IMG/VR virus record: IMGVR_UViG_2706794670_000001
DNA: 19,675 bases
Origin: a virus
Lineage: Duplodnaviria > Heunggongvirae > Uroviricota > Caudoviricetes
Direction: 5' to 3' (one strand)
Shown: positions 1-19,500 of the stretch, piece by piece
How the letters are laid out: every line of letters begins with the position of its first letter
Numbering within the stretch: position 1 is the stretch's first letter
Position numbers and translations under genes: made by a program
The notes under the pieces: generated by a model
Seen by the model: only the letters and a program-made list of their open reading frames with translations
What the model was told of the DNA's origin: nothing
Databases searched by the model: none

Positions 1-257
1 GGTTATCGCTCGCCACGGGAATATCTGCGGCAGCGGGCTTGTAATGGGTTAAGTGATAACAGATGTCTGGAAATATAGGGGCAAATCCAATCGTCGCCGT
101 ATTCCCGTATTAACAGAGACCGTAGCCCGACGGGGAACTCCTTCTGCGCGAGTGTGCGGGAATAATCAAAAACGATGCACACCGGGGTTACCGGGTACAC
201 ATATTTCATCATGCCAGCGAGTCCGGTTCTGGCACGGAAGAAACCGGACGTTATGAT

Positions 258-668
258 TTAGTGCGGAAATATTTGTGTAGTGTTCTGTATGTTCTCAGTA
301 AAGAGTAATGAATTATCAAAGGTATAGTAATACCTTTTGTTTTCGTGGATATTTGTAATCCATCTGAAAACCCCTGCTGTAGCAAGATTTTTCCTGTATT
401 CGTAAAATGATAACTCTCCTGATTTGAATCCTTTTAAGGTGGCTTCTATAAGGCATTTATTTTTTGAAAATCTTACATTTACAACCTTACCCTGTCCTTT
501 TATTAAAACCGTATTATCGTTTTCAAGAACAAGATGAATATTCTCTGTGGCTAAATAGTAAATGTAATGTGAGACATTGTGACGTTTTAGTTCAGAATAA
601 AACCAGTGATAGTTTAAATTATTTCGCACTTTATCGAATATTTGTTTAAAAATGGCAACCTGAGCCAT
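258..668 (-). CDS. hypothetical protein (136 aa), AT-rich cos-proximal moron; possibly YbcV-like (DUF1398), unverified
   Basis: Minus-strand ORF with stop at 258-260. The track starts it at 683 (141 aa), but the second in-frame ATG at 668 is preceded by GGAAGG about 7 nt upstream, whereas the first ATG has no Shine-Dalgarno, so I prefer 668. Coding region is roughly 30% GC against ~55% for the structural genes. No hydrophobic segment, so probably cytoplasmic. Family assignment is from memory only. Confidence 0.55.
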
Positions 669-725
669 TGTAGTACCTTCCATGTGATATGAGGGGGCGT
701 AGTCTGCACGATTATCTAAATTGCT

Positions 726-959
726 TCAATCTGGTCTAACCTGTTTTCTGAGCAATTCAGTAATGTCACTCTTTTCTTTGTTTGCTTCAGGCGAAACTCT
801 TTTTTCTGAGCACAGTCTCCGGCGGCAGGCTTCAATGACCCAGGCTGAGAAATTCCCGGACCCTTTTTGAACAAGAGCGATGTTAATTTGTTCAATCATT
901 TGGTTAGGAAAGCGGATGTTGCGGGTTGTTGTTCTGCGGGTTCTGTTCTTCGTTGACAT
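726..959 (-). CDS. small basic protein (77 aa) with ribbon-helix-helix-like N-terminus; resembles YlcI/DUF3950-type proteins found next to cos in lambdoid prophages
   Basis: Minus-strand ORF, ATG at 959-957, stop TGA at 728-726. The Arg/Thr-rich N-terminal tail followed by NIRFPNQMIEQINIALVQKG...FSAWVIEACRRRL has a strand-helix-helix pattern typical of Arc/MetJ/CopG folds. Lies ~200 bp left of cosN, upstream of the 136-aa ORF on the same strand. Confidence 0.6.
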   Translation of the reverse strand: MSTKNRTRRTTTRNIRFPNQMIEQINIALVQKGSGNFSAWVIEACRRRLCSEKRVSPEANKEKSDITELLRKQVRPD

Positions 960-1158
960 GAGGTTGCCCTGTATTCAGTGTCGCTGATTTGTATTGTCTG
1001 AAGTTGTTTTTACGTTAAGTTGATGCAGATCAATTAATACGATACCTGCGTCATAATTGATTATTTGACGTGGTTTGATGGCGTAGATGCACGTTGTGAC
1101 ATGTAGATGATAATTATTATCATTTTGCGGGTCCTTTCCGGCGATCCGACAGGTTACG

Positions 1159-1170
1159 GGGCGGAAGGCG
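1159..1170. other. cosN cohesive-end 12-mer (variant): GGGCGGAAGGCG
   Basis: The flanks ...CCGACAGGTTACG on the left and CGCGGGTTTTCGCTATTTATGA on the right match the lambda right-end and left-end sequences as I recall them. The 12 nt between them occupy the position of the lambda cohesive end. Confidence 0.6.
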
Positions 1171-1347: not shown

Positions 1348-1867
1348 ATGGAAGTCAACAAAAAGCAGCTGGCTGACATTTTCGGTGCGAGTATCCGTAC
1401 CATTCAGAACTGGCAGGAACAGGGAATGCCCGTTCTGCGAGGCGGTGGCAAGGGTAATGAGGTGCTTTATGACTCTGCCGCCGTTATAAGATGGTATGCC
1501 GAAAGGGATGCTGAAATTGAGAACGAAAAGCTGCGCCGGGAAGTTGAAGAACTGCGGCAGGCCAGCGAGACAGATCTCCAGCCAGGGACTATTGAGTACG
1601 AACGCCATCGACTTACGCGTGCGCAGGCCGACGCACAGGAGCTGAAAAATGCCAGAGACTCCGCTGAAGTGGTGGAAACCGCATTCTGTACTTTCGTGCT
1701 GTCGCGGATCGCAGGTGAAATTGCCAGTATTCTCGACGGGATCCCCCTGTCGGTGCAGCGGCGTTTTCCGGAACTGGAAAACCGACATGTTGATTTCCTG
1801 AAACGGGATATCATCAAAGCCATGAACAAAGCAGCCGCGCTGGATGAACTGATACCGGGGTTGCTGA

Positions 1868-1893
<26 letters not shown>
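1348..1893 (+). CDS. nu1: terminase small subunit gpNu1
   Basis: 181-aa ORF beginning MEVNKKQLADIFGASIRTIQNWQEQGMPVL, which matches lambda Nu1 in sequence and length. Stop TAA at 1891-1893; overlaps the start of A. Confidence 0.95.
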
Positions 1894-5595
<3,702 letters not shown>

Positions 5596-5615
<20 letters not shown>

Positions 5616-6915
5616 TCTCCCGCATATTGCCAGCATGGCTTTTAATGAGCCGCTGATGCTTGAACCCGCCTATGCGCGGGTTTTCTTTTGTGCGCTTGCA
5701 GGCCAGCTTGGGATCAGCTGCCTGACGGATGCAGTATCCGGCGACAGCCTGACTGCCGGAGAGGCACCCGCGGCGCTGGCGTTATCCGGTGATGATGACG
5801 GACCACGACAGGCCCGCAGTTATCAGGTAATGAACGGCATCGCCGTGCTGCCGGTGTCCGGCACGCTGGTCAGCCGGACGCGGGCGCTGCAGCCGTACTC
5901 GGGGATGACCGGTTACAACGGCATTATCGCCCGTCTGCAACAGGCTGCCAGCGACCCGATGGTGGACGGCATTCTGCTCGATATGGACACACCGGGCGGA
6001 ATGGTGGCGGGAGCATTTGACTGCGCTGACATCATCGCCCGTGTGCGTGACATAAAGCCGGTATGGGCGCTGGCCAATGACATGAACTGCAGCGCAGGTC
6101 AGCTGCTTGCCAGTGCCGCCTCCCGGCGTCTGGTCACGCAGACCGCCCGGACAGGCTCCATCGGCGTCATGATGGCTCACAGTAATTACGGCGCTGCACT
6201 GGAGAAACAGGGCGTGGAAATCACGCTGATTTACAGCGGCAGCCATAAGGTGGATGGCAACCCCTACAGCCATCTACCGGATGATGTCCGGGAAACATTG
6301 CAGTCCCGGATGGATGCAACCCGCCGGATGTTTGCACAGAAGGTGTCGGCATATACCGGCCTGTCCGTGCAGGCTGTGCTGGATACCGAGGCTGCAGTGT
6401 ACAGCGGTCAGGAGGCCATTGATGCCGGACTGGCTGATGAACTTGTTAACAGTACCGATGCGATCACCGTCATGCGTGATGCACTGGATGCACGTAAATC
6501 CCGTCTCTCAGGAGGGCGAATGACCAAAGAGACTCAATCAACAACTGTTTCAGCCACTGCTTCGCAGGCTGACGTTACTGGCGTGGTGCAAGCGACGGAG
6601 GGCGAGAACGCCAGCGCGGCGCAGCCGGACGTGAACGCGCAGATCACCGCAGCGGTTGCGGCAGAAAACAGTCGCATTATGGGGATCCTCAACTGTGAGG
6701 AGGCTCACGGACGCGAAGAACAGGCACGCGTGCTGGCCGAAACCCCCGGTATGACCGTGGAAACGGCCCGCCGTATTCTGGCCGCAGCACCACAGAGTGC
6801 ACAGACGCGCAGTGACACTGCGCTGGATCGTCTGATGCAGGGGGCACCGGCACCGCTGGCTGCAGGTAACCCGGCATCTGATGCCGTTAACGATTTGCTG
6901 AACACACCAGTGTAA
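5596..6915 (+). CDS. C: head maturation protease / scaffold gpC
   Basis: GTG start at 5596 preceded by GAGGAGGAGAAG, overlapping the last 20 nt of B. Translation (M)TAELRNLPHIASMAFNEPLMLEP... is 439 aa. The track ORF begins further upstream at 5461, but that extension lies inside B coding sequence and is rejected. Confidence 0.9.
6310..6915 (+). CDS. nu3: scaffolding protein gpNu3 (in-frame internal start within C)
   Basis: Internal ATG at 6310 in the C frame gives MDATRRMFAQKVSAYTGLSV... of 201 aa sharing the C stop, which is the lambda C/Nu3 nested arrangement. Confidence 0.75.
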   Translation: MDATRRMFAQKVSAYTGLSVQAVLDTEAAVYSGQEAIDAGLADELVNSTDAITVMRDALDARKSRLSGGRMTKETQSTTVSATASQADVTGVVQATEGENASAAQPDVNAQITAAVAAENSRIMGILNCEEAHGREEQARVLAETPGMTVETARRILAAAPQSAQTRSDTALDRLMQGAPAPLAAGNPASDAVNDLLNTPV

Positions 6916-9154: not shown

Positions 9155-9586
9155 ATGGCCATAAAAGGTCTTGAGCAGGCCGTTGAAAACCTCAGCCGTA
9201 TCAGCAAAACGGCGGTGCCCGGTGCCGCCGCAATGGCCATTAACCGCGTTGCTTCATCCGCGANNNNNNNNNNNNNNNNNNNNNNNNNNNNNNNNNNNNN
9301 NNNNNNNNNNNNNNNNNNNNNNNNNNNNNNNNNNNNNNNNNNNNNNNNNNNNNNNNNNNNNNNNNNNNNNNNNNNNNNNNNNNNNNNNNNNNNNNNNNNN
9401 NNNNNNNNNNNNNNNNNNNNNNNNNNNNNNNNNNNNNNNNNNNNNNNNNNNNNNNNNNNNNNNNNNNNNNNNNNNNNNNNNNNNNNNNNNNNNNNNNNNN
9501 NNNNNNNNNNNNNNNNNNNNNNNNGTCTTCCGAAAGAGCTGGGCTATGCGCTGCAGCATCAACTGAGAATGGTAATAAAGCGATGA
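9155..9586 (+). CDS. Z: tail completion protein gpZ (spans N-run 9264-9524; true length unknown)
   Basis: N-terminus MAIKGLEQAVENLSRISKTAVPGAAAMAINRVASSA and C-terminus [19 protein letters not shown] flank the N-run in one frame. The stop overlaps the U start (ATGA). Confidence 0.85.
   Translation: MAIKGLEQAVENLSRISKTAVPGAAAMAINRVASSAXXXXXXXXXXXXXXXXXXXXXXXXXXXXXXXXXXXXXXXXXXXXXXXXXXXXXXXXXXXXXXXXXXXXXXXXXXXXXXXXXXXXXXXXLPKELGYALQHQLRMVIKR
9264..9524. other. run of N (261 nt) inside Z
   Basis: Directly visible in the sequence. Confidence 1.
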
Positions 9587-11580: not shown

Positions 11581-14095
11581 ACCGGTAGGCGATCTGGTCG
11601 TTGATTTGAGTCTGGATGCGGCCAGATTTGACGAGCAGATGGCCAGAGTCAGGCGTCATTTTTCCGGTACGGAAAGTGATGCGAAAAAAACAGCGGCNNN
11701 NNNNNNNNNNNNNNNNNNNNNNNNNNNNNNNNNNNNNNNNNNNNNNNNNNNNNNNNNNNNNNNNNNNNNNNNNNNNNNNNNNNNNNNNNNNNNNNNNNNN
11801 NNNNNNNNNNNNNNNNNNNNNNNNNNNNNNNNNNNNNNNNNNNNNNNNNNNNNNNNNNNNNNNNNNNNNNNNNNNNNNNNNNNNNNNNNNNNNNNNNNNN
11901 NNNNNNNNNNNNNNNNNNNNNNNNNNNNNNNNNNNNNNNNNNNNNNNNCACCTCGCTGGCGGTGGCGACCGGTGCGCTGGCGTATGCCTGGTATCAGGGC
12001 AACTCAACCCTGTCCGATTTCAACAAAACGCTGGTCCTTTCCGGTAATCAGGCGGGACTGACGGCAGATCGTATGCTGGTCCTGTCCAGAGCCGGGCAGG
12101 CGGCAGGGCTGACGTTTAACCAGACCAGCGAGTCACTCAGCGCACTGGTTAAGGCGGGGGTAAGCGGTGAGGCTCAGATTGCGTCCATCAGCCAGAGTGT
12201 GGCGCGTTTCTCCTATGCATCCGGCGTGGAGGTGGACAAGGTCGCTGAAGCCTTCGGGAAGCTGACCACAGACCCGACGTCGGGGCTGACGGCGATGGCA
12301 CGCCAGTTCCATAACGTGACGGCGGAGCAGATTGCGTATGTTGCTCAGTTGCAGCGTTCCGGCGATGAAGCCGGGGCATTGCAGGCGGCGAACGAGGCCG
12401 CAACGAAAGGGTTTGATGACCAGACCCGCCGCCTGAAAGAGAACATGGGCACGCTGGAGACCTGGGCAGACAGGACTGCACGTGCATTCAAATCCATGTG
12501 GGATGCGGTGCTGGATATTGGTCGTCCTGATACCGCGCAGGAGATGCTGATTAAGGCAGAGGCTGCGTTTAAGAAAGCAGACGACATCTGGAATCTGCGC
12601 AAGGATGATTATTTCGTTAACGATGAAGCACGGGCGCGTTACTGGGATGATCGTGAAAAAAAACGCCTGGAGCGGGATGCAGCCCAAAAGAGGGTAGATC
12701 AACAGCGTCAACAGGACAAAAATGCGCAGCAGCAGAGCGATACCGAAGCGTCACGGCTGAAATATACCGAAGAGGCGCAGAAGGCTTACGAACGGCTGCA
12801 GACGCCGCTGGAGAAATATACCGCCCGTCAGGAAGAACTGAACAAGGCACTGAAAGACGGAAAAATCCTGCAGGCAGATTACAACACGCTGATGGCGGCG
12901 GCGAAAAAGGATTATGAAGCGACGCTGAAAAAGCCGAAACAGTCCGGCGTGAAGGTGTATGCGGGCGATCGTCAGGAAGACAGTGCTCATGCGGCCCTGC
13001 TGACGCTTCAGGCAGAACTCCGGACGCTGGAGAAGCATGCCGGAGCGAATGAGAAAATCAGCCAGCAGCGCCGGGATTTGTGGAAGGCAGAAAGTCAGTT
13101 CGCGGTACTGGAGGAGGCGGCACAACGTCGCCAGCTGTCCGCACAGGAGAAATCCCTGCTGGCGCATAAAGACGAGACGCTGGAGTACAAACGCCAGCTG
13201 GCTGCACTTGGTGACAAGGTTACGTATCAGGAGCACCTGAATGCGCTGGCGCAGCAGGCGGATAAATTCGCACAGCAGCAACGGGCAAAACGGGCAGCCA
13301 TTGATGCGAAAAACCGGGGGCTGACTGACCGGCAGGCAGCGCGGGAAGCCACGGAACAGCGCCTGAAGGAACAGTATGGCGATAATCCTCTGGCGCTGAA
13401 TAACGTCATGTCAGAGCAGAAAAAGACCTGGGCGGCTGAAGACCAGCTTCGCGGGAGCTGGATGGCAGGCCTGAAGTCCGGCTGGAGTGAGTGGGAAGAG
13501 AGCGCCACGGACAGTATGTCACAGGTTAAAAGTGCAGCCACGCAGACCTTTGATGGTATTGCACAGAATATGGCGGCGATGCTGACCGGCANNNNNNNNN
13601 NNNNNNNNNNNNNNNNNNNNNNNNNNNNNNNNNNNNNNNNNNNNNNNNNNNNNNNNNNNNNNNNNNNNNNNNNNNNNNNNNNNNNNNNNNNNNNNNNNNN
13701 NNNNNNNNNNNNNNNNNNNNNNNNNNNNNNNNNNNNNNNNNNNNNNNNNNNNNNNNNNNNNNNNNNNNNNNNNNNNNNNNNNNNNNNNNNNNNNNNNNNN
13801 NNNNNNNNNNNNNNNNNNNNNNNNNNNNNNNNNNNNNNNNNATCTCTACCGGCTGATGCGCGGCTATGCGGAAGGTGGTTATGTGGGCGGTGCCGGAAGT
13901 CCGGCGCAGATGCGGCGGGCTGAAGGCATTAATTTTAATCAGAACAATCACGTGGTGATTCAGAACGACGGTACGAATGGTCTGCCAGGTCCACAGATGA
14001 TGAAGGCCGTGTATGACATGGCCCGCAAGGGTGCCCGTGATGAAATTCAGACACAGATGCGTGATGGTGGCCTGTTCTCCGGAGGTGGACGATGA
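11573..14095 (+). CDS. H: tail tape measure protein gpH (spans N-runs 11698-11948 and 13592-13841; apparent frame changes at both)
   Basis: N-terminus MAEPVGDLVVDLSLDAARFDEQMARVRRHFSGTESDAKKTA, a long middle segment TSLAVATGALAYAWYQGNSTLSDFNKTLVLSGNQAGL...AQNMAAMLTG, and C-terminus NLYRLMRGYAEGGYVGG...MRDGGLFSGGGR. The three segments are in different frames relative to one another across the N-runs. Stop TGA at 14093-14095 overlaps the M start. Confidence 0.9.
11698..11948. other. run of N (251 nt) inside H
   Basis: Directly visible in the sequence. Confidence 1.
13592..13841. other. run of N (250 nt) inside H
   Basis: Directly visible in the sequence. Confidence 1.
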
Positions 14096-15020: not shown

Positions 15021-15279
15021 NNNNNNNNNNNNNNNNNNNNNNNNNNNNNNNNNNNNNNNNNNNNNNNNNNNNNNNNNNNNNNNNNNNNNNNNNNNNNNNN
15101 NNNNNNNNNNNNNNNNNNNNNNNNNNNNNNNNNNNNNNNNNNNNNNNNNNNNNNNNNNNNNNNNNNNNNNNNNNNNNNNNNNNNNNNNNNNNNNNNNNNN
15201 NNNNNNNNNNNNNNNNNNNNNNNNNNNNNNNNNNNNNNNNNNNNNNNNNNNNNNNNNNNNNNNNNNNNNNNNNNNNNNN
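15021..15279. other. run of N (259 nt) covering the L/K junction
   Basis: Directly visible in the sequence. Confidence 1.
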
Positions 15280-16526: not shown

Positions 16527-19500
16527 ATGGGTAAAGGCAGCAGTAAGGGGCATACCCCGCGCGAAGCGAAGGACAACCTGAAGTCCACGCAGCTGCTGAG
16601 TGTGATCGATGCCATCAGCGAAGGGCCGGTTGAAGGTCCGGTGGATGGATTAAAAAGCGTGCTGCTGAACAGTACGCCGGTGCTGGACAGTGAGGGGAAT
16701 ACCAACATCTCCGGCGTCACGGTGGTGTTCCGGGCAGGTGAGCAGGAGCAGTCACCGCCGGAGGGATTTGAATCCTCCGGCTCCGAGACGGTGCTGGGTA
16801 CGGAAGTGAAATATGACACGCCGATCACCCGGACCATCACGTCGGCAAACATTGACCGACTGCGTTTTACCTTCGGTGTACAGGCACTGGTGGAAACCAC
16901 CTCAAAGGGAGACAGGAATCCGTCTGAAGTTCGCCTGCTGGTTCAGATACAGCGTAACGGTGGCTGGGTGACGGAAAAAGACATCACCATTAAGGGCAAA
17001 ACCACCTCGCAGTATCTGGCCTCGGTGGTGGTGGATAACCTGCCGCCGCGCCCGTTTAATATCCGGATGCGCAGAATGACGCCGGACAGCACCACAGACC
17101 AGCTGCAGAACAAAACGCTCTGGTCGTCATACACCGAAATCATCGATGTGAAACAGTGCTACCCGAACACGGCACTGGTCGGCGTACAGGTGGATTCGGA
17201 GCAGTTCGGCAGCCAGCAGGTGAGCCGTAATTATCATCTTCGCGGGCGCATTCTGCAGGTGCCGTCGAACTATAATCCGCAGACGCGGCAATACAGCGGT
17301 ATCTGGGACGGAACGTTAAAACCGGCATACAGCAACAACATGGCCTGGTGTCTGTGGGATATGCTGACCCATCCGCGCTATGGCATGGGGAAACGTCTTG
17401 GTGCGGCAGATGTGGATAAATGGGCGCTGTATGTCATCGGCCAGTACTGTGACCAGTCGGTGCCGGACGGCTTTGGCAGCACGGAGCCGCGCATCACCTG
17501 TAATGCCTGGCTGACCACACAGCGCAAGGCGTGGGATGTGCTCAGTGATTTCTGCTCGGCGATGCGCTGTATGCCGGTATGGAACGGGCAGACGCTGACG
17601 TTCGTGCAGGACCGACAGTCGGATAAGGTGTGGGCCTATAACCGCAGTAATGTGGTGATGCCGGATGATGGCGCGCCGTTCCGCTACAGTTTCAGCGCCC
17701 TGAAAGACCGCCATAATGCCGTTGAGGTGAACTGGATTGACCCGGATAACGGCTGGGAGACGGCGACAGAGCTTGTGGAGGATACGCAGGCCATTGTCCG
17801 TTACGGTCGTAACGTCACGAAGATGGATGCCTTTGGCTGTACCAGCCGGGGGCAGGCACACCGCGCCGGGCTGTGGCTGATTAAAACGGAACTGCTGGAG
17901 ACGCAGACCGTGGATTTCAGCGTGGGTGCTGAAGGGCTTCGTCATGTACCGGGCGATGTCATTGAAATCTGCGATGATGACTATGCCGGTATCCGCACCG
18001 GCGGGCGCGTGCTGGCGGTGAACAGCCAGACCCGGACGCTGACGCTCGACCGTGAAATCACGCTGCCATCCTCCGGCACCACGCTGATAAGCCTGGTTGA
18101 CGGGCAGGGGAATCCGGTCAGCGTGGAGGTCCAGTCCGTCACCGACGGCGTGAAGGTAAAAGTGAGCCGTGTTCCTGACGGTGTTGCTGAATACAGCGTG
18201 TGGGGGCTGAAGCTGCCGACGCTGCACCAGCGATTGTTCCGCTGCGNNNNNNNNNNNNNNNNNNNNNNNNNNNNNNNNNNNNNNNNNNNNNNNNNNNNNN
18301 NNNNNNNNNNNNNNNNNNNNNNNNNNNNNNNNNNNNNNNNNNNNNNNNNNNNNNNNNNNNNNNNNNNNNNNNNNNNNNNNNNNNNNNNNNNNNNNNNNNN
18401 NNNNNNNNNNNNNNNNNNNNNNNNNNNNNNNNNNNNNNNNNNNNNNNNNNNNNNNNNNNNNNNNNNNNNNNNNNNNNNNNNNNNNNNNNNNNNNNNGCTG
18501 ACAGTCCGGGCAGTAAATGCGTGGGGGCAGCAGGGCGATCCGGCGTCGGTATCGTTCCGGATTGCCGCACCGGCAGCGCTGTCGCGGATTGAGCTGACGC
18601 CGGGCTATTTTCAGATAACCGCCACGCCGCATCTTGCGGTTTATGATCCGACGGTACAGTTTGAGTTCTGGTTCTCGGAAAAGCGGATTGCGGATATCAG
18701 GCAGGTTGAAACCACAGCACGCTATCTTGGCACGGCGCTGTACTGGATAGCCGCCAGTATCAATATCAAACCGGGCCATGATTATTACTTTTATATCCGC
18801 AGTGTGAACACCGTTGGCAAATCGGCATTCGTGGAGGCTGTTGGTCAGCCGAGTGATGATGCATCCGGTTATCTGGATTTTTTCAAAGGCGAGATAGGGA
18901 AAACCCATCTGGCTCAGGAGCTGTGGACGCAGATTGATAACGGTCAGCTTGCGCCTGACCTGGCTGAAATCAGGACGTCCATTACGGATGTCAGCAATGA
19001 AATCACGCAGACCGTCAATAAGAAACTGGAAGACCAGAGTGCGGCAATTCAGCAGATACAGAAGGTTCAGGTTGATACAAATAATAACCTGAACAGCATG
19101 TGGGCTGTGAAGCTGCAGCAGATGCAGGACGGACGCCTTTATATCGCGGGTATTGGTGCCGGTATTGAGAACACCCCTGACGGCATGCAGAGTCAGGTGC
19201 TGCTGGCGGCGGACAGGATTGCGATGGTTAATCCTGCGAATGGCAACACAAAACCGATGTTTGTTGGTCAGGGCGATCAGATATTCATGAACGACGTGTT
19301 CCTGAAACGCCTGACGGCCCCCACCATTACCAGCGGTGGAAATCCATCGGCATTTTCCCTGACTCCGGACGGAAAGCTGACCGCTAAAAATGCGGATATC
19401 AGTGGCAGTGTGAATGCGAACGCCGGGACGCTCAACAATGTCACGGTAAATGAAAACTGTACGATTAAGGGCATGCTGGAGGCGACTCAGGTCAGAGGTG

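What the first reader, a model, noticed from the sequence alone, without database searches (positions are those of the whole stretch)
258..1158. Two-gene minus-strand cassette (RHH-like regulator plus unknown 136-aa protein) as a candidate uncharacterised lysogen-expressed module
The two genes are co-oriented and 57 nt apart (42 nt if the 683 start is used), with roughly 200 bp of AT-rich non-coding DNA between the upstream gene and cosN that could hold their promoter. A small RHH protein followed by a 100-140-aa partner is the layout of many type II toxin-antitoxin pairs and of small abortive-infection or exclusion modules. The orientation opposite to the late operon and the compositional contrast point to a moron rather than a morphogenesis function. 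No known toxin, nuclease or NTPase motif is visible in the partner, so an assigned function would be new. This is a hypothesis from organisation only.
Basis: inference. Interest (0 to 1): 0.6.

Follow-up and report, generated by a model that had tools for sequence, protein, structure and literature searches.

The report
Known lambda-end genes, not a toxin pair
The two minus-strand genes next to the phage cos site are real, but they are the already catalogued, still uncharacterised ynfO/ydfO-type genes found in E. coli prophages and in phage lambda, and they behave as two independent accessory genes rather than a toxin-antitoxin or exclusion pair.

Summary
726-959(-) encodes a 77-aa protein and 258-668(-) a 136-aa protein. 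They lie 57 nt apart, about 200 nt from cosN, and are AT-rich relative to the late operon.

Both genes are already catalogued. The upstream gene belongs to DUF3950 (YlcI/YnfO) and is 97% identical to K-12 YnfO. The downstream gene belongs to DUF1398, is 75-77% identical to YdfO, YbcV and lambdap78, and has a solved relative (PDB 2HH8). The layout is that of Qin ynfO-ydfO. Lambda and DLP12 carry the same two genes with ybcW/lambdap79 between them on the other strand.

- DUF3950 copies outnumber DUF1398 copies about 2.5:1 in E. coli genomes and 155:43 in phage records.
- DUF3950 also occurs alone in satellites.
- DUF1398 occurs alone in chromosomal loci.
- The DUF1398 gene carries its own conserved 73-nt leader with a PdhR-type box.
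- The two genes do not co-vary.

The most likely picture is two independent accessory genes that are dispensable for lytic growth: a solitary, probably ribbon-helix-helix regulator, and a separately promoted, host-regulated moron. Their biochemical functions remain unknown. The finding is ordinary, and interest is low.

The parts
258..668 (-). DUF1398 (YdfO/YbcV/lambdap78 family) gene, 136 aa. An alternative upstream ATG at 683 would give 141 aa.
   Evidence: Pfam PF07166 E=3.3e-43 over the full profile. PDB 2HH8 (E. coli YdfO) E=1.4e-69. It is 75-77% identical to YdfO, YbcV and lambdap78. dN/dS is 0.18-0.35. G+C is 31.4%.
669..741 (-). Conserved 73-nt leader that travels with the DUF1398 gene. 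It includes the Shine-Dalgarno sequence GGAAGG.
   Evidence: Upstream regions were aligned from the window, Qin, DLP12, lambda and ycgX. Homology holds from GGTNAGACCAGATTGAAG to the ATG in all five contexts and breaks upstream of it. As RNA the leader has no stable structure (z=+1.58).
729..745 (-). PdhR-box-like 17-mer AACAGGTTAGACCAGAT (core GGTTAGACC at 733-741). It overlaps the last codons of the DUF3950 gene.
   Evidence: It corresponds to the gSELEX PdhR sites reported at ynfO/ydfO (AAcaGGTcagACCAgaT) and in the ybcV/ybcW spacer. ybcV mRNA fell 10-fold in a pdhR mutant (PMC7660256). The sequence is read.
711..738 (-). Sigma-70-like promoter candidate (TAGACC, 16 nt, GATAAT) for the DUF1398 gene.
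   Evidence: It is a consensus scan hit, 9 of 12. The spacing is not conserved in DLP12, lambda or ycgX, so it remains only a candidate.
726..959 (-). DUF3950 (YlcI/YnfO family) gene, 77 aa. Residues 1-50 (810-959) form a basic arm plus a probable ribbon-helix-helix core. Residues 51-77 (729-809) form a variable tail.
   Evidence: Pfam PF13132 E=2e-20 and NCBIfam YlcI_YnfO_N above its cut-off. It is 97% identical to K-12 YnfO. The core is nearly invariant and the tails are hypervariable. Core dN/dS is 0.06-0.11 against BP-4795. The AF2 core has pLDDT about 87 with helices at 19-32 and 34-52.
960..1158 (.). Cos-proximal non-coding DNA, equivalent to the right end of lambda. It holds the cosQ equivalent (1129-1135), an inverted repeat (1029-1041 / 1049-1061) and a palindrome (1107-1123).
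   Evidence: It is nearly invariant among lambda-type phages and unrelated in BP-4795. The cosQ position is taken from the phage 434 annotation. No minus-strand sigma-70 consensus was found here.
1159..1170 (+). Equivalent of the cosN 12-nt cohesive end, in the variant form GGGCGGAAGGCG.
   Evidence: Found by alignment with lambda GGGCGGCGACCT. The variant occurs in 5 of 70 fetched loci.
218..248 (-). Hairpin just downstream of the DUF1398 stop codon. It is at best a weak terminator.
   Evidence: Folding gives -15.2 kcal/mol with z=-1.46, and there is no U-tract.
1..89 (.). Terminal part of an IS2 (IS3-family) element that abuts the phage DNA.
   Evidence: Window 1-260 matches 20679 places in E. 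coli genomes, annotated as IS2/IS3-family transposase. A near-identical genome shows the IS beside the same gene pair.
1348..1893 (+). Nu1 terminase small subunit, the first gene of the late packaging operon.
   Evidence: Pfam Phage_Nu1 E=2.4e-101.

Best explanation
The region holds two previously catalogued lambdoid accessory genes in the arrangement of ynfO-ydfO in the E. coli K-12 Qin prophage. Phage lambda and DLP12 carry the same two genes with ybcW/lambdap79 inserted between them. The genes are two independently distributed units that happen to abut, not an obligate pair.

(1) The DUF3950 protein is a solitary small protein with a basic N-terminal arm and a probable ribbon-helix-helix DNA-binding core. 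Its gene sits at the junction between the lysis and packaging modules of lambdoid phages, and between alpA and the primase gene in P4-like and capsid-forming satellites. In every context examined it is transcribed against the surrounding operon. I infer that it is a dimeric transcriptional regulator made in the prophage state.

(2) The DUF1398 gene is an AT-rich moron with its own conserved 73-nt leader, which starts at a PdhR-type box. I infer that it is expressed from its own host-regulated promoter and encodes a cytoplasmic binding protein with no enzyme activity, not a toxin.

Both genes lie antisense to the late transcript, and the DUF1398 homologue lambdap78 is dispensable for lytic growth. 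The identities, distributions and the conserved leader are shown here. The regulator role, the expression timing and the binding-protein role are inferred.
For: Identity: Pfam, NCBIfam and PDB matches. The upstream protein is 97% identical to YnfO and the downstream one 75-77% identical to YdfO, YbcV and lambdap78. Qin has identical gene sizes and the same 57-nt spacer. Lambda and DLP12 have ybcW/lambdap79 on the other strand between the two genes.

Independence:
- Phage records: 155 hold DUF3950 and 43 hold DUF1398.
- E. coli complete genomes: DUF3950 occupies 9549 places in 4184 genomes, DUF1398 3860 places in 3020 genomes.
- DUF3950 alone: followed by bor in phage 434, between Rz and an HNH-TerS-TerL module in BP-4795, and as a lone opposite-strand gene between alpA and primase in 7 satellite loci.
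- DUF1398 alone: at ycgX, and in 20 loci of Kluyvera, Klebsiella, Salmonella, Raoultella and Pseudocitrobacter with no DUF3950 or Nu1 within the fetched flanks, up to 6 kb each side.
- The conserved leader is shared by five different contexts, and a PdhR site and PdhR dependence are published.
- No co-variation: the YnfO proteins of the window and Qin differ at 2 of 77 residues, whereas their DUF1398 partners differ at 34 of 136.
- G+C is 31% for one gene and 44% for the other.

Both genes are under purifying selection. Invariant DUF1398 residues are mostly aromatic or hydrophobic plus Arg, Asn and Thr, with no catalytic-looking set. lambdap78 is non-essential by CRISPRi. ydfO and ybcV transcripts respond to stress and to PdhR, and ylcI is transcribed in K-12, where it forms a convergent excludon with ybcW.
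Against: When DUF1398 is present in a phage it is usually right next to DUF3950. All 77 IMG/VR loci with the window allele and enough upstream DNA show this, and at least 2612 E. coli genomes have the Qin-type junction. No terminator was predicted between the genes, so co-transcription and regulation of the downstream gene by the upstream protein in this arrangement are not excluded. The RHH assignment is not statistically supported. No promoter was located for the DUF3950 gene. The promoter candidate for the DUF1398 gene is not conserved in spacing. No biochemical activity is known for either protein. Expression in a lysogen of this particular phage was not measured.
Confidence: 0.7

Rival explanations
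1. One reading: a type II toxin-antitoxin or abortive-infection/exclusion pair, in which the RHH protein is the antitoxin and autorepressor and the 136-aa protein is a new toxin or effector.
For: The small RHH-like gene comes first on the same strand with a short spacer. The two genes are adjacent in many genomes. The C-terminal tail of the small protein is variable, as in antitoxins. The weak structural hits are mostly RHH antitoxins.
Against: The genes occur apart in both directions. An opposite-strand gene separates them in lambda and DLP12. They do not co-vary. The last codons of the YnfO tail are simply the leader of the DUF1398 unit. There is no match to toxin or defence families in Pfam or PADLOC. 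An R-x4-H motif at residues 29-34 is not conserved in the family. YbcV and YdfO have been overproduced in E. coli, in the ASKA screen and for the NMR structure.
Confidence: 0.07
2. A facultative regulator-effector operon. In the Qin-type arrangement the DUF3950 protein controls, or is co-transcribed with, the DUF1398 gene, even though each gene can also exist alone.
For: Adjacency is constant for this allele, 77 of 77 loci. No terminator lies between the genes. The DUF3950 stop codon lies inside the conserved leader, next to the PdhR-type box.
Against: The DUF3950 core is nearly identical in phages that lack DUF1398, so its conserved target must lie elsewhere. The leader is conserved where no DUF3950 gene is nearby, at ycgX.
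Confidence: 0.15
3. The DUF3950 reading frame is incidental. The DNA would be conserved as part of the cis-acting packaging region near cos.
For: The 200 bp between the ORF and cosN, and the ORF's first 150 nt, are almost invariant among lambda-type phages.
Against: The ORF is conserved next to an unrelated packaging module in BP-4795 with pS about 0.5, pN about 0.07 and dN/dS of 0.06-0.11. A 35-45% identical subfamily exists in satellites far from any lambda-type cos.
Confidence: 0.03
4. The 136-aa protein is a virion or envelope component, as database labels say ('head protein', 'putative envelope protein').
For: The labels appear in PHROGs and in GenBank/RefSeq records.
Against: The gene runs opposite to the head genes. 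lambdap78 is non-essential. Homologues sit in non-phage chromosomal loci. On reading the sequence there is no signal peptide or membrane segment. Nothing found here backs either label experimentally.
Confidence: 0.02

Closest known systems
E. coli K-12 Qin prophage ynfO-ydfO (b4533, b1549)
   Same: Gene order, strand, gene lengths (234 and 411 nt), the 57-nt spacer and the position next to the Nu1 homologue nohA are all the same. YnfO is 97% identical to the window protein.
   Different: The DUF1398 allele is only 75% identical. Here the neighbouring packaging and head-tail genes look intact on the + strand, whereas Qin is a remnant.
Right end of phage lambda (lambdap78, lambdap79 and the DUF3950 ORF at about 48139-48303, which is unannotated in NC_001416) and DLP12 ybcV-ybcW-ylcI
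   Same: The same two families lie on the same strand between the lysis genes and cos. DNA identity over the shared parts is about 87%.
   Different: Lambda and DLP12 carry about 560 extra bp with ybcW/lambdap79 on the opposite strand between the two genes, a short YlcI-type tail (64 aa), and bor to the left. The window has none of these.
Type II toxin-antitoxin modules with RHH antitoxins (ParD/ParE, RelB/RelE, FitA/FitB)
   Same: A small, probably RHH protein is encoded first, followed by a 100-140-aa protein on the same strand.
   Different: Co-occurrence is not obligate, the proteins do not co-vary, the downstream gene has its own leader, it has no similarity to any toxin family, and there is no reported toxicity.
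Lambda lysogenic-conversion morons bor and lom
   Same: Both classes are non-essential, vary in presence among related phages and lie inside late regions. Like bor, the pair runs against the late transcript.
   Different: bor and lom encode outer-membrane proteins with known phenotypes. These two proteins are cytoplasmic and have no known phenotype.
P22 Arc and Mnt repressors (Arc-type RHH)
   Same: They share the N-x-R-[FW]-P strand motif, helix A, and an N-x-S cap before helix B. hhalign aligns the families in that register.
   Different: The similarity is not significant (E 0.009-0.047), and neither an operator nor a target promoter is known.

Membership tests
DUF1398 (PF07166; YdfO/YbcV/YcgX/lambdap78) | Full-length match to the family profile above the curated cut-off | tested here: met
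   147 bits against a cut-off of 22, profile positions 1-119 of 119.
DUF1398 (PF07166; YdfO/YbcV/YcgX/lambdap78) | Close homology to the solved family member | tested here: met
   PDB 2HH8 (YdfO) E=1.4e-69 over residues 1-140.
DUF3950 / YlcI-YnfO (PF13132, NF041551) | Match above the curated cut-offs, with the invariant RFP...NFS.W..AC signature | tested here: met
   Pfam 72.8 bits (cut-off 25) and NCBIfam 35.2 bits (cut-off 30). The signature columns are invariant in 38 sequences from two subfamilies.
Ribbon-helix-helix superfamily (Arc/MetJ/CopG) | An N-terminal strand followed by two helices joined by a short capped turn | tested here: inconclusive
   AF2 gives an extended segment at 14-18 and helices at 19-32 and 34-52, with core pLDDT about 87. 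The strand can only pair in a dimer, which was not modelled.
Ribbon-helix-helix superfamily (Arc/MetJ/CopG) | Significant sequence or structure similarity to a known RHH protein | tested here: inconclusive
Ribbon-helix-helix superfamily (Arc/MetJ/CopG) | Dimerisation and operator binding | not testable with these tools
   This needs EMSA or ChIP, or a multimer model.
Type II toxin-antitoxin system | Adjacent co-directional genes with the antitoxin first | tested here: met
   726-959(-) is followed by 258-668(-) after a 57-nt spacer.
Type II toxin-antitoxin system | The two genes are inherited together | tested here: not met
   155 against 43 phage records and 9549 against 3860 places in E. coli genomes. 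Solitary copies of each gene exist.
Type II toxin-antitoxin system | The antitoxin C-terminus co-varies with its toxin | tested here: not met
   The window and Qin small proteins differ by 1 residue in the tail, while their partners differ at 34 of 136 residues. The end of the tail is encoded by the partner's leader.
Type II toxin-antitoxin system | The downstream protein is a growth inhibitor or belongs to a toxin family | tested here: not met
   There are no toxin families in Pfam and no PADLOC match. Overproduction of YbcV and YdfO is reported without lethality. Direct toxicity was not tested.
Known anti-phage defence systems (PADLOC) | A match to a defence-system protein model | tested here: not met
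   The only hit is Csx23 at E=0.025 for the 136-aa protein. The 77-aa protein has none.
HEPN nucleases | A conserved R-x4-6-H motif in a helical domain | tested here: not met
   The Pfam HEPN_AbiA_CTD hit scores 15.8 bits, below the cut-off of 27. RHNVSH at residues 29-34 is replaced by QNNVAY, SNIVYY and similar in family members, and lies at a predicted helix-to-strand boundary in a low-confidence model.
Prophage moron (accessory gene) | Compositional contrast, and presence/absence polymorphism between otherwise related phages | tested here: met
   G+C is 31% against 53%. The DUF1398 gene is absent from 434, BP-4795 and most DUF3950-bearing phage records.
Prophage moron (accessory gene) | Its own promoter and terminator | tested here: inconclusive
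   There is a conserved leader and one consensus promoter hit. The downstream hairpin is weak.
Prophage moron (accessory gene) | Expressed from the repressed prophage | not testable with these tools
   Only indirect evidence exists: transcripts of K-12 homologues have been measured.

The most novel reading that the evidence does not exclude
DUF3950 proteins may be a family of solitary RHH regulators, each transcribed against its surrounding operon, shared by lambdoid phages and by the P4-like and capsid-forming satellites that exploit them. In phages the gene lies at the lysis/packaging junction next to cos. In satellites it lies between alpA and the primase gene. The proteins could control transcription running through those junctions in the lysogen, or mediate regulatory cross-talk between helper phage and satellite. 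Separately, the DUF1398 unit with its mobile PdhR-box leader could link prophage gene expression to the host's pyruvate status.
Probability: 0.1. Interest if true: 0.55.

Novelty: already known. Interest (0 to 1): 0.2.

Why it matters
It matters little for discovery. The pair is the ynfO-ydfO arrangement of E. coli K-12, and both families are already present in Pfam, NCBIfam, PHROGs and the PDB. Its residual value is as a y-ome problem. These are among the last uncharacterised genes of phage lambda's right end. DUF1398 copies occur in about 56% and DUF3950 copies in about 77% of complete E. coli genomes. The neighbouring lambdap79/ybcW gene has been reported, in a recent preprint, as the trigger of the Vulcan defence system. 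Showing that the two genes are independent units tells experimenters to study them separately rather than as a toxin-antitoxin pair. It also flags the database labels 'head protein' and 'envelope protein' as unsupported.

Tried and rejected

2. HEPN reading. A weak Pfam hit and an R-x4-H motif were rejected because the motif is not conserved in the family.

3. Stop-codon read-through or a fusion protein. The two ORFs are in the same frame and are separated by one TGA, and 233-aa 'fusion' proteins exist in the databases (P0014). Those proteins carry W at the TGA, so they are most likely products of a gene call with another genetic code. In addition, the spacer is one base shorter in 37 of 77 loci, so the shared frame is not conserved.

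4. A structured RNA in the leader, or a known RNA family. Rfam gave only noise, and the leader folds worse than shuffled sequence.

5. PADLOC defence models gave nothing.

6. Profile searches of PDB with DUF3950 alignments gave nothing.

A narrower alignment worked.

8. The count (5211 of 5426 genomes) is inflated by the IS2 end at window 1-89. It was replaced by gene-specific counts.

9. The lambda ribosome-profiling paper (Liu et al. 2013) could not be read.

10. PMC4077768 states that YdfO overexpression raises oxidative-stress resistance. I did not use this. From my own recollection the cited work concerns yfdO of the CPS-53 prophage, and I could not check it.
Full report
**1. What is there**

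The window is a lambda-type packaging and morphogenesis region. Nu1 (Pfam E=2.4e-101) starts at 1348 and is followed by large + strand ORFs. By alignment with lambda, the 12-nt cohesive end is at 1159-1170.

To its left, on the minus strand, are a 77-aa ORF (726-959) and a 136-aa ORF (258-668, or 141 aa from 683). The 668 start has GGAAGG 7 nt upstream, and 683 has no Shine-Dalgarno sequence.

G+C is 31% for the 136-aa gene, 44% for the 77-aa gene and 41% for 960-1158, against 53-54% for the late genes. Both ORFs are genuine genes under purifying selection. dN/dS is 0.18-0.35 for the larger gene. For the first 50 codons of the smaller gene it is 0.06-0.11 against the BP-4795 homologue, whose synonymous divergence is about 0.5.

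Window 1-89 is the tip of an IS2 element. The prophage is therefore interrupted 169 bp beyond the pair, and the small ORFs in 1-257 are chimeric.

**2. What the genes are**

- **The 77-aa protein** is a DUF3950 / YlcI-YnfO family member (Pfam 2e-20; NCBIfam above its cut-off). It is 97% identical to E. coli K-12 YnfO.
- **The 136-aa protein** is a DUF1398 member (Pfam 3e-43). It is 75-77% identical to YdfO, YbcV and lambdap78, and its relative YdfO has a solved NMR structure, 2HH8.

The arrangement is exactly that of ynfO-ydfO in the Qin prophage: same gene lengths, same 57-nt spacer, and the same position next to the Nu1 homologue. The DNA is about 87% identical to the right end of phage lambda. 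There, and in DLP12, the same two genes are separated by about 560 bp carrying ybcW/lambdap79 on the other strand. The lambda DUF3950 ORF (about 48139-48303) is not annotated in NC_001416.

Published information is thin:
- ynfO and ydfO are listed as uncharacterised in the 2024 y-ome survey (PMC11551758).
- lambdap78 is non-essential by CRISPRi (PMC10695390).
- PdhR binds at ynfO/ydfO and in the ybcV/ybcW spacer, and ybcV mRNA falls 10-fold in a pdhR mutant (PMC7660256).
- ydfO is induced about 100-fold by an ionic liquid (PMC4077768).
- ybcW-ylcI is reported as a convergent excludon in K-12 RNA-seq (PMC12288877).
- ASKA overexpression of ybcV changes glycogen content (PMC2853380).
- lambdap79, which is absent from this window, activates the Vulcan NADase defence system (bioRxiv 10.64898/2026.09.04.749371).

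**3. Is it a two-gene module?**

For the window's own DUF1398 allele the two genes are always adjacent, in 77 of 77 IMG/VR loci with enough upstream DNA. At least 2612 complete E. coli genomes carry the Qin-type junction. Beyond that, the genes are distributed independently.

| Collection | DUF3950 | DUF1398 |
|---|---|---|
| Phage records (50,697 searched) | 155 records | 43 records |
| Complete E. coli genomes (5426) | 9549 places in 4184 genomes | 3860 places in 3020 genomes |

DUF3950 occurs without DUF1398 in several settings:
- In phage 434 the DUF3950 gene is followed directly by bor.
- In BP-4795 it lies between Rz and an unrelated HNH-TerS-TerL packaging module.
- A second subfamily, 35-45% identical with the same invariant RFP...NFS.W..AC signature, is found in Klebsiella, Serratia, Yersinia, Dickeya and others. 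There it is a lone opposite-strand gene between alpA and the primase gene of P4-like and capsid-forming satellites. No DUF1398 gene is nearby in any of the 7 loci examined.

DUF1398 occurs without DUF3950 as well:
- ycgX of K-12 sits next to bluR.
- Twenty loci in Kluyvera, Klebsiella, Salmonella diarizonae, Raoultella and Pseudocitrobacter have no DUF3950 or Nu1 within the fetched flanks (up to 6 kb each side) and have their own AT-rich upstream regions.

The proteins also do not co-vary. The window and Qin small proteins differ at 2 of 77 residues, while their partners differ at 34 of 136.

**4. Anatomy of the junction**

I aligned the 160 nt upstream of the DUF1398 start codon from the window, Qin, DLP12, lambda and ycgX. 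A 73-nt leader is conserved in all five contexts (window 669-741). It begins at GGTNAGACCAGATTGAAG, and homology breaks immediately upstream of that point.

The beginning of the leader is the PdhR-type box reported by gSELEX. In the window and in Qin, the last five codons and the stop codon of the DUF3950 gene lie inside this leader. The end of the long YnfO-type tail is thus a by-product of the junction. This fits the family alignment, in which residues 1-50 are nearly invariant and the tails are unrelated in sequence and length.

A consensus promoter hit (TAGACC, 16 nt, GATAAT; 738 to 711) lies in the leader, but its spacing is not conserved in the other contexts. The leader has no stable RNA structure and no Rfam match. 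No minus-strand promoter consensus was found upstream of the DUF3950 gene. That region is almost invariant among lambda-type phages, contains the cosQ equivalent, and is unrelated in BP-4795.

**5. Folds and motifs**

For the DUF1398 protein the AF2 model failed (pLDDT 50), and the fold search on it is meaningless. Profile searches find only 2HH8. A single-sequence search of 1.84 billion representatives finds only 189 relatives, and all 20 distant loci retrieved were from Enterobacteriaceae.

The residues conserved across the family are mainly aromatic or hydrophobic plus Arg, Asn and Thr, with no catalytic-looking set. An R-x4-H motif in the window protein is not conserved. No defence or toxin family matches. 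On reading the sequence there is no signal peptide or membrane segment, so nothing found here supports the labels 'envelope protein' and 'head protein'.

**6. Best explanation**

The region holds two independent accessory units that abut.

- **DUF3950.** I infer a solitary dimeric DNA-binding regulator made in the prophage state. The basis is its probable RHH core, its basic arm, very strong purifying selection on the core, and its constant placement as a lone gene transcribed against the flanking operon, in phages and in satellites alike.
- **DUF1398.** I infer a moron with its own host-controlled leader that encodes a binding protein with no enzyme activity and modulates host physiology.

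By established knowledge of lambda, the late pR' transcript runs through this region across the joined cos into Nu1. Both genes are therefore antisense to late transcription, like bor.

The toxin-antitoxin/exclusion reading is not supported. A facultative regulator-effector operon in the Qin-type arrangement is not excluded, because the genes are adjacent and no terminator lies between them.

**7. Verdict**

The feature is already known as a gene pair, in K-12 Qin and, with an insert, in lambda. Only the functions are unknown. Interest is low.

Noticed in passing
window 1-89: The window starts inside an IS2 (IS3-family) element whose terminal inverted repeat ends at 89. The prophage is therefore interrupted 169 bp downstream of the DUF1398 gene. 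The IS2 fragment also inflates whole-region match counts: one search gave 5211 genomes and one search gave 20679 places.
   Followed up: partly
window 1159-1170: The 12-nt cohesive-end equivalent is GGGCGGAAGGCG. It differs from lambda GGGCGGCGACCT at 5 positions. Among fetched loci with the same flanks, 5 carry this variant and 65 the lambda form.
   Followed up: partly
L111-L117 (gene at about 6001-6204 in each): A second DUF3950 subfamily is a lone opposite-strand gene between alpA and the primase gene in P4-like and capsid-forming satellites of Klebsiella, Dickeya and others. One island (L116) carries Kiwa (KwaA/KwaB) next to the integrase. In L111 a 324-aa gene with no Pfam match is called over the DUF3950 gene on the other strand. 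It is split or absent in sister loci, so it is probably spurious.
   Followed up: partly
window 258-668 and database records of homologues: DUF1398 genes are labelled 'head protein' (PHROG 413 and RefSeq phage records, including lambda NC_001416) or 'putative envelope protein'. Strand, non-essentiality, chromosomal homologues and the lack of a signal peptide or membrane segment argue that both labels are unfounded.
   Followed up: partly
lambda NC_001416 / J02459, about 48139-48303 (complement): The DUF3950 ORF of phage lambda has no annotated feature in the reference records, although it is 94.5% identical to the window protein over residues 1-55.
   Followed up: no
window 669-728; proteins P0010, P0014: The two ORFs share a frame and are separated by a single TGA. 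Database 'fusion' proteins of 233 aa, in a cluster of 761 sequences, carry W at that codon. They most likely result from gene calling with a code that reads TGA as Trp. The spacer is 56 nt in 37 of 77 related loci, so the shared frame is not conserved.
   Followed up: yes
window 669-725 compared with lambda (L003 about 3702-4230) and DLP12 (L005 3596-4251): ybcW/lambdap79, reported in a 2026 preprint as the phage protein that activates the Vulcan NADase defence system, is absent here, as it is in Qin. A phage with this arrangement would lack that trigger.
   Followed up: no
window 1029-1061 and 1096-1123: An inverted repeat (13-nt arms, 7 nt apart) lies 70-100 nt upstream of the DUF3950 start. 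A near-perfect palindrome, ATGATAAT-N-ATTATCAT, lies about 35 nt from cosN. The palindrome overlaps a + strand promoter-like site (GTGACA, 16 nt, TATCAT; 10 of 12) that points towards cos and Nu1.
   Followed up: no
window 3152-3417, 9264-9524, 11698-11948, 13592-13841, 15021-15279, 18247-18496: There are six runs of N, each 250-266 bases long, inside the late genes. They are masked sequence, not biology.
   Followed up: no
K-12 ydfO (L004 5048-5458): ydfO is listed as 'essential only by TraDIS' in PMC5821084, although it lies in a dispensable cryptic prophage. A lack of transposon insertions or of mappable reads in this AT-rich, multi-copy gene seems the likelier cause.
   Followed up: no
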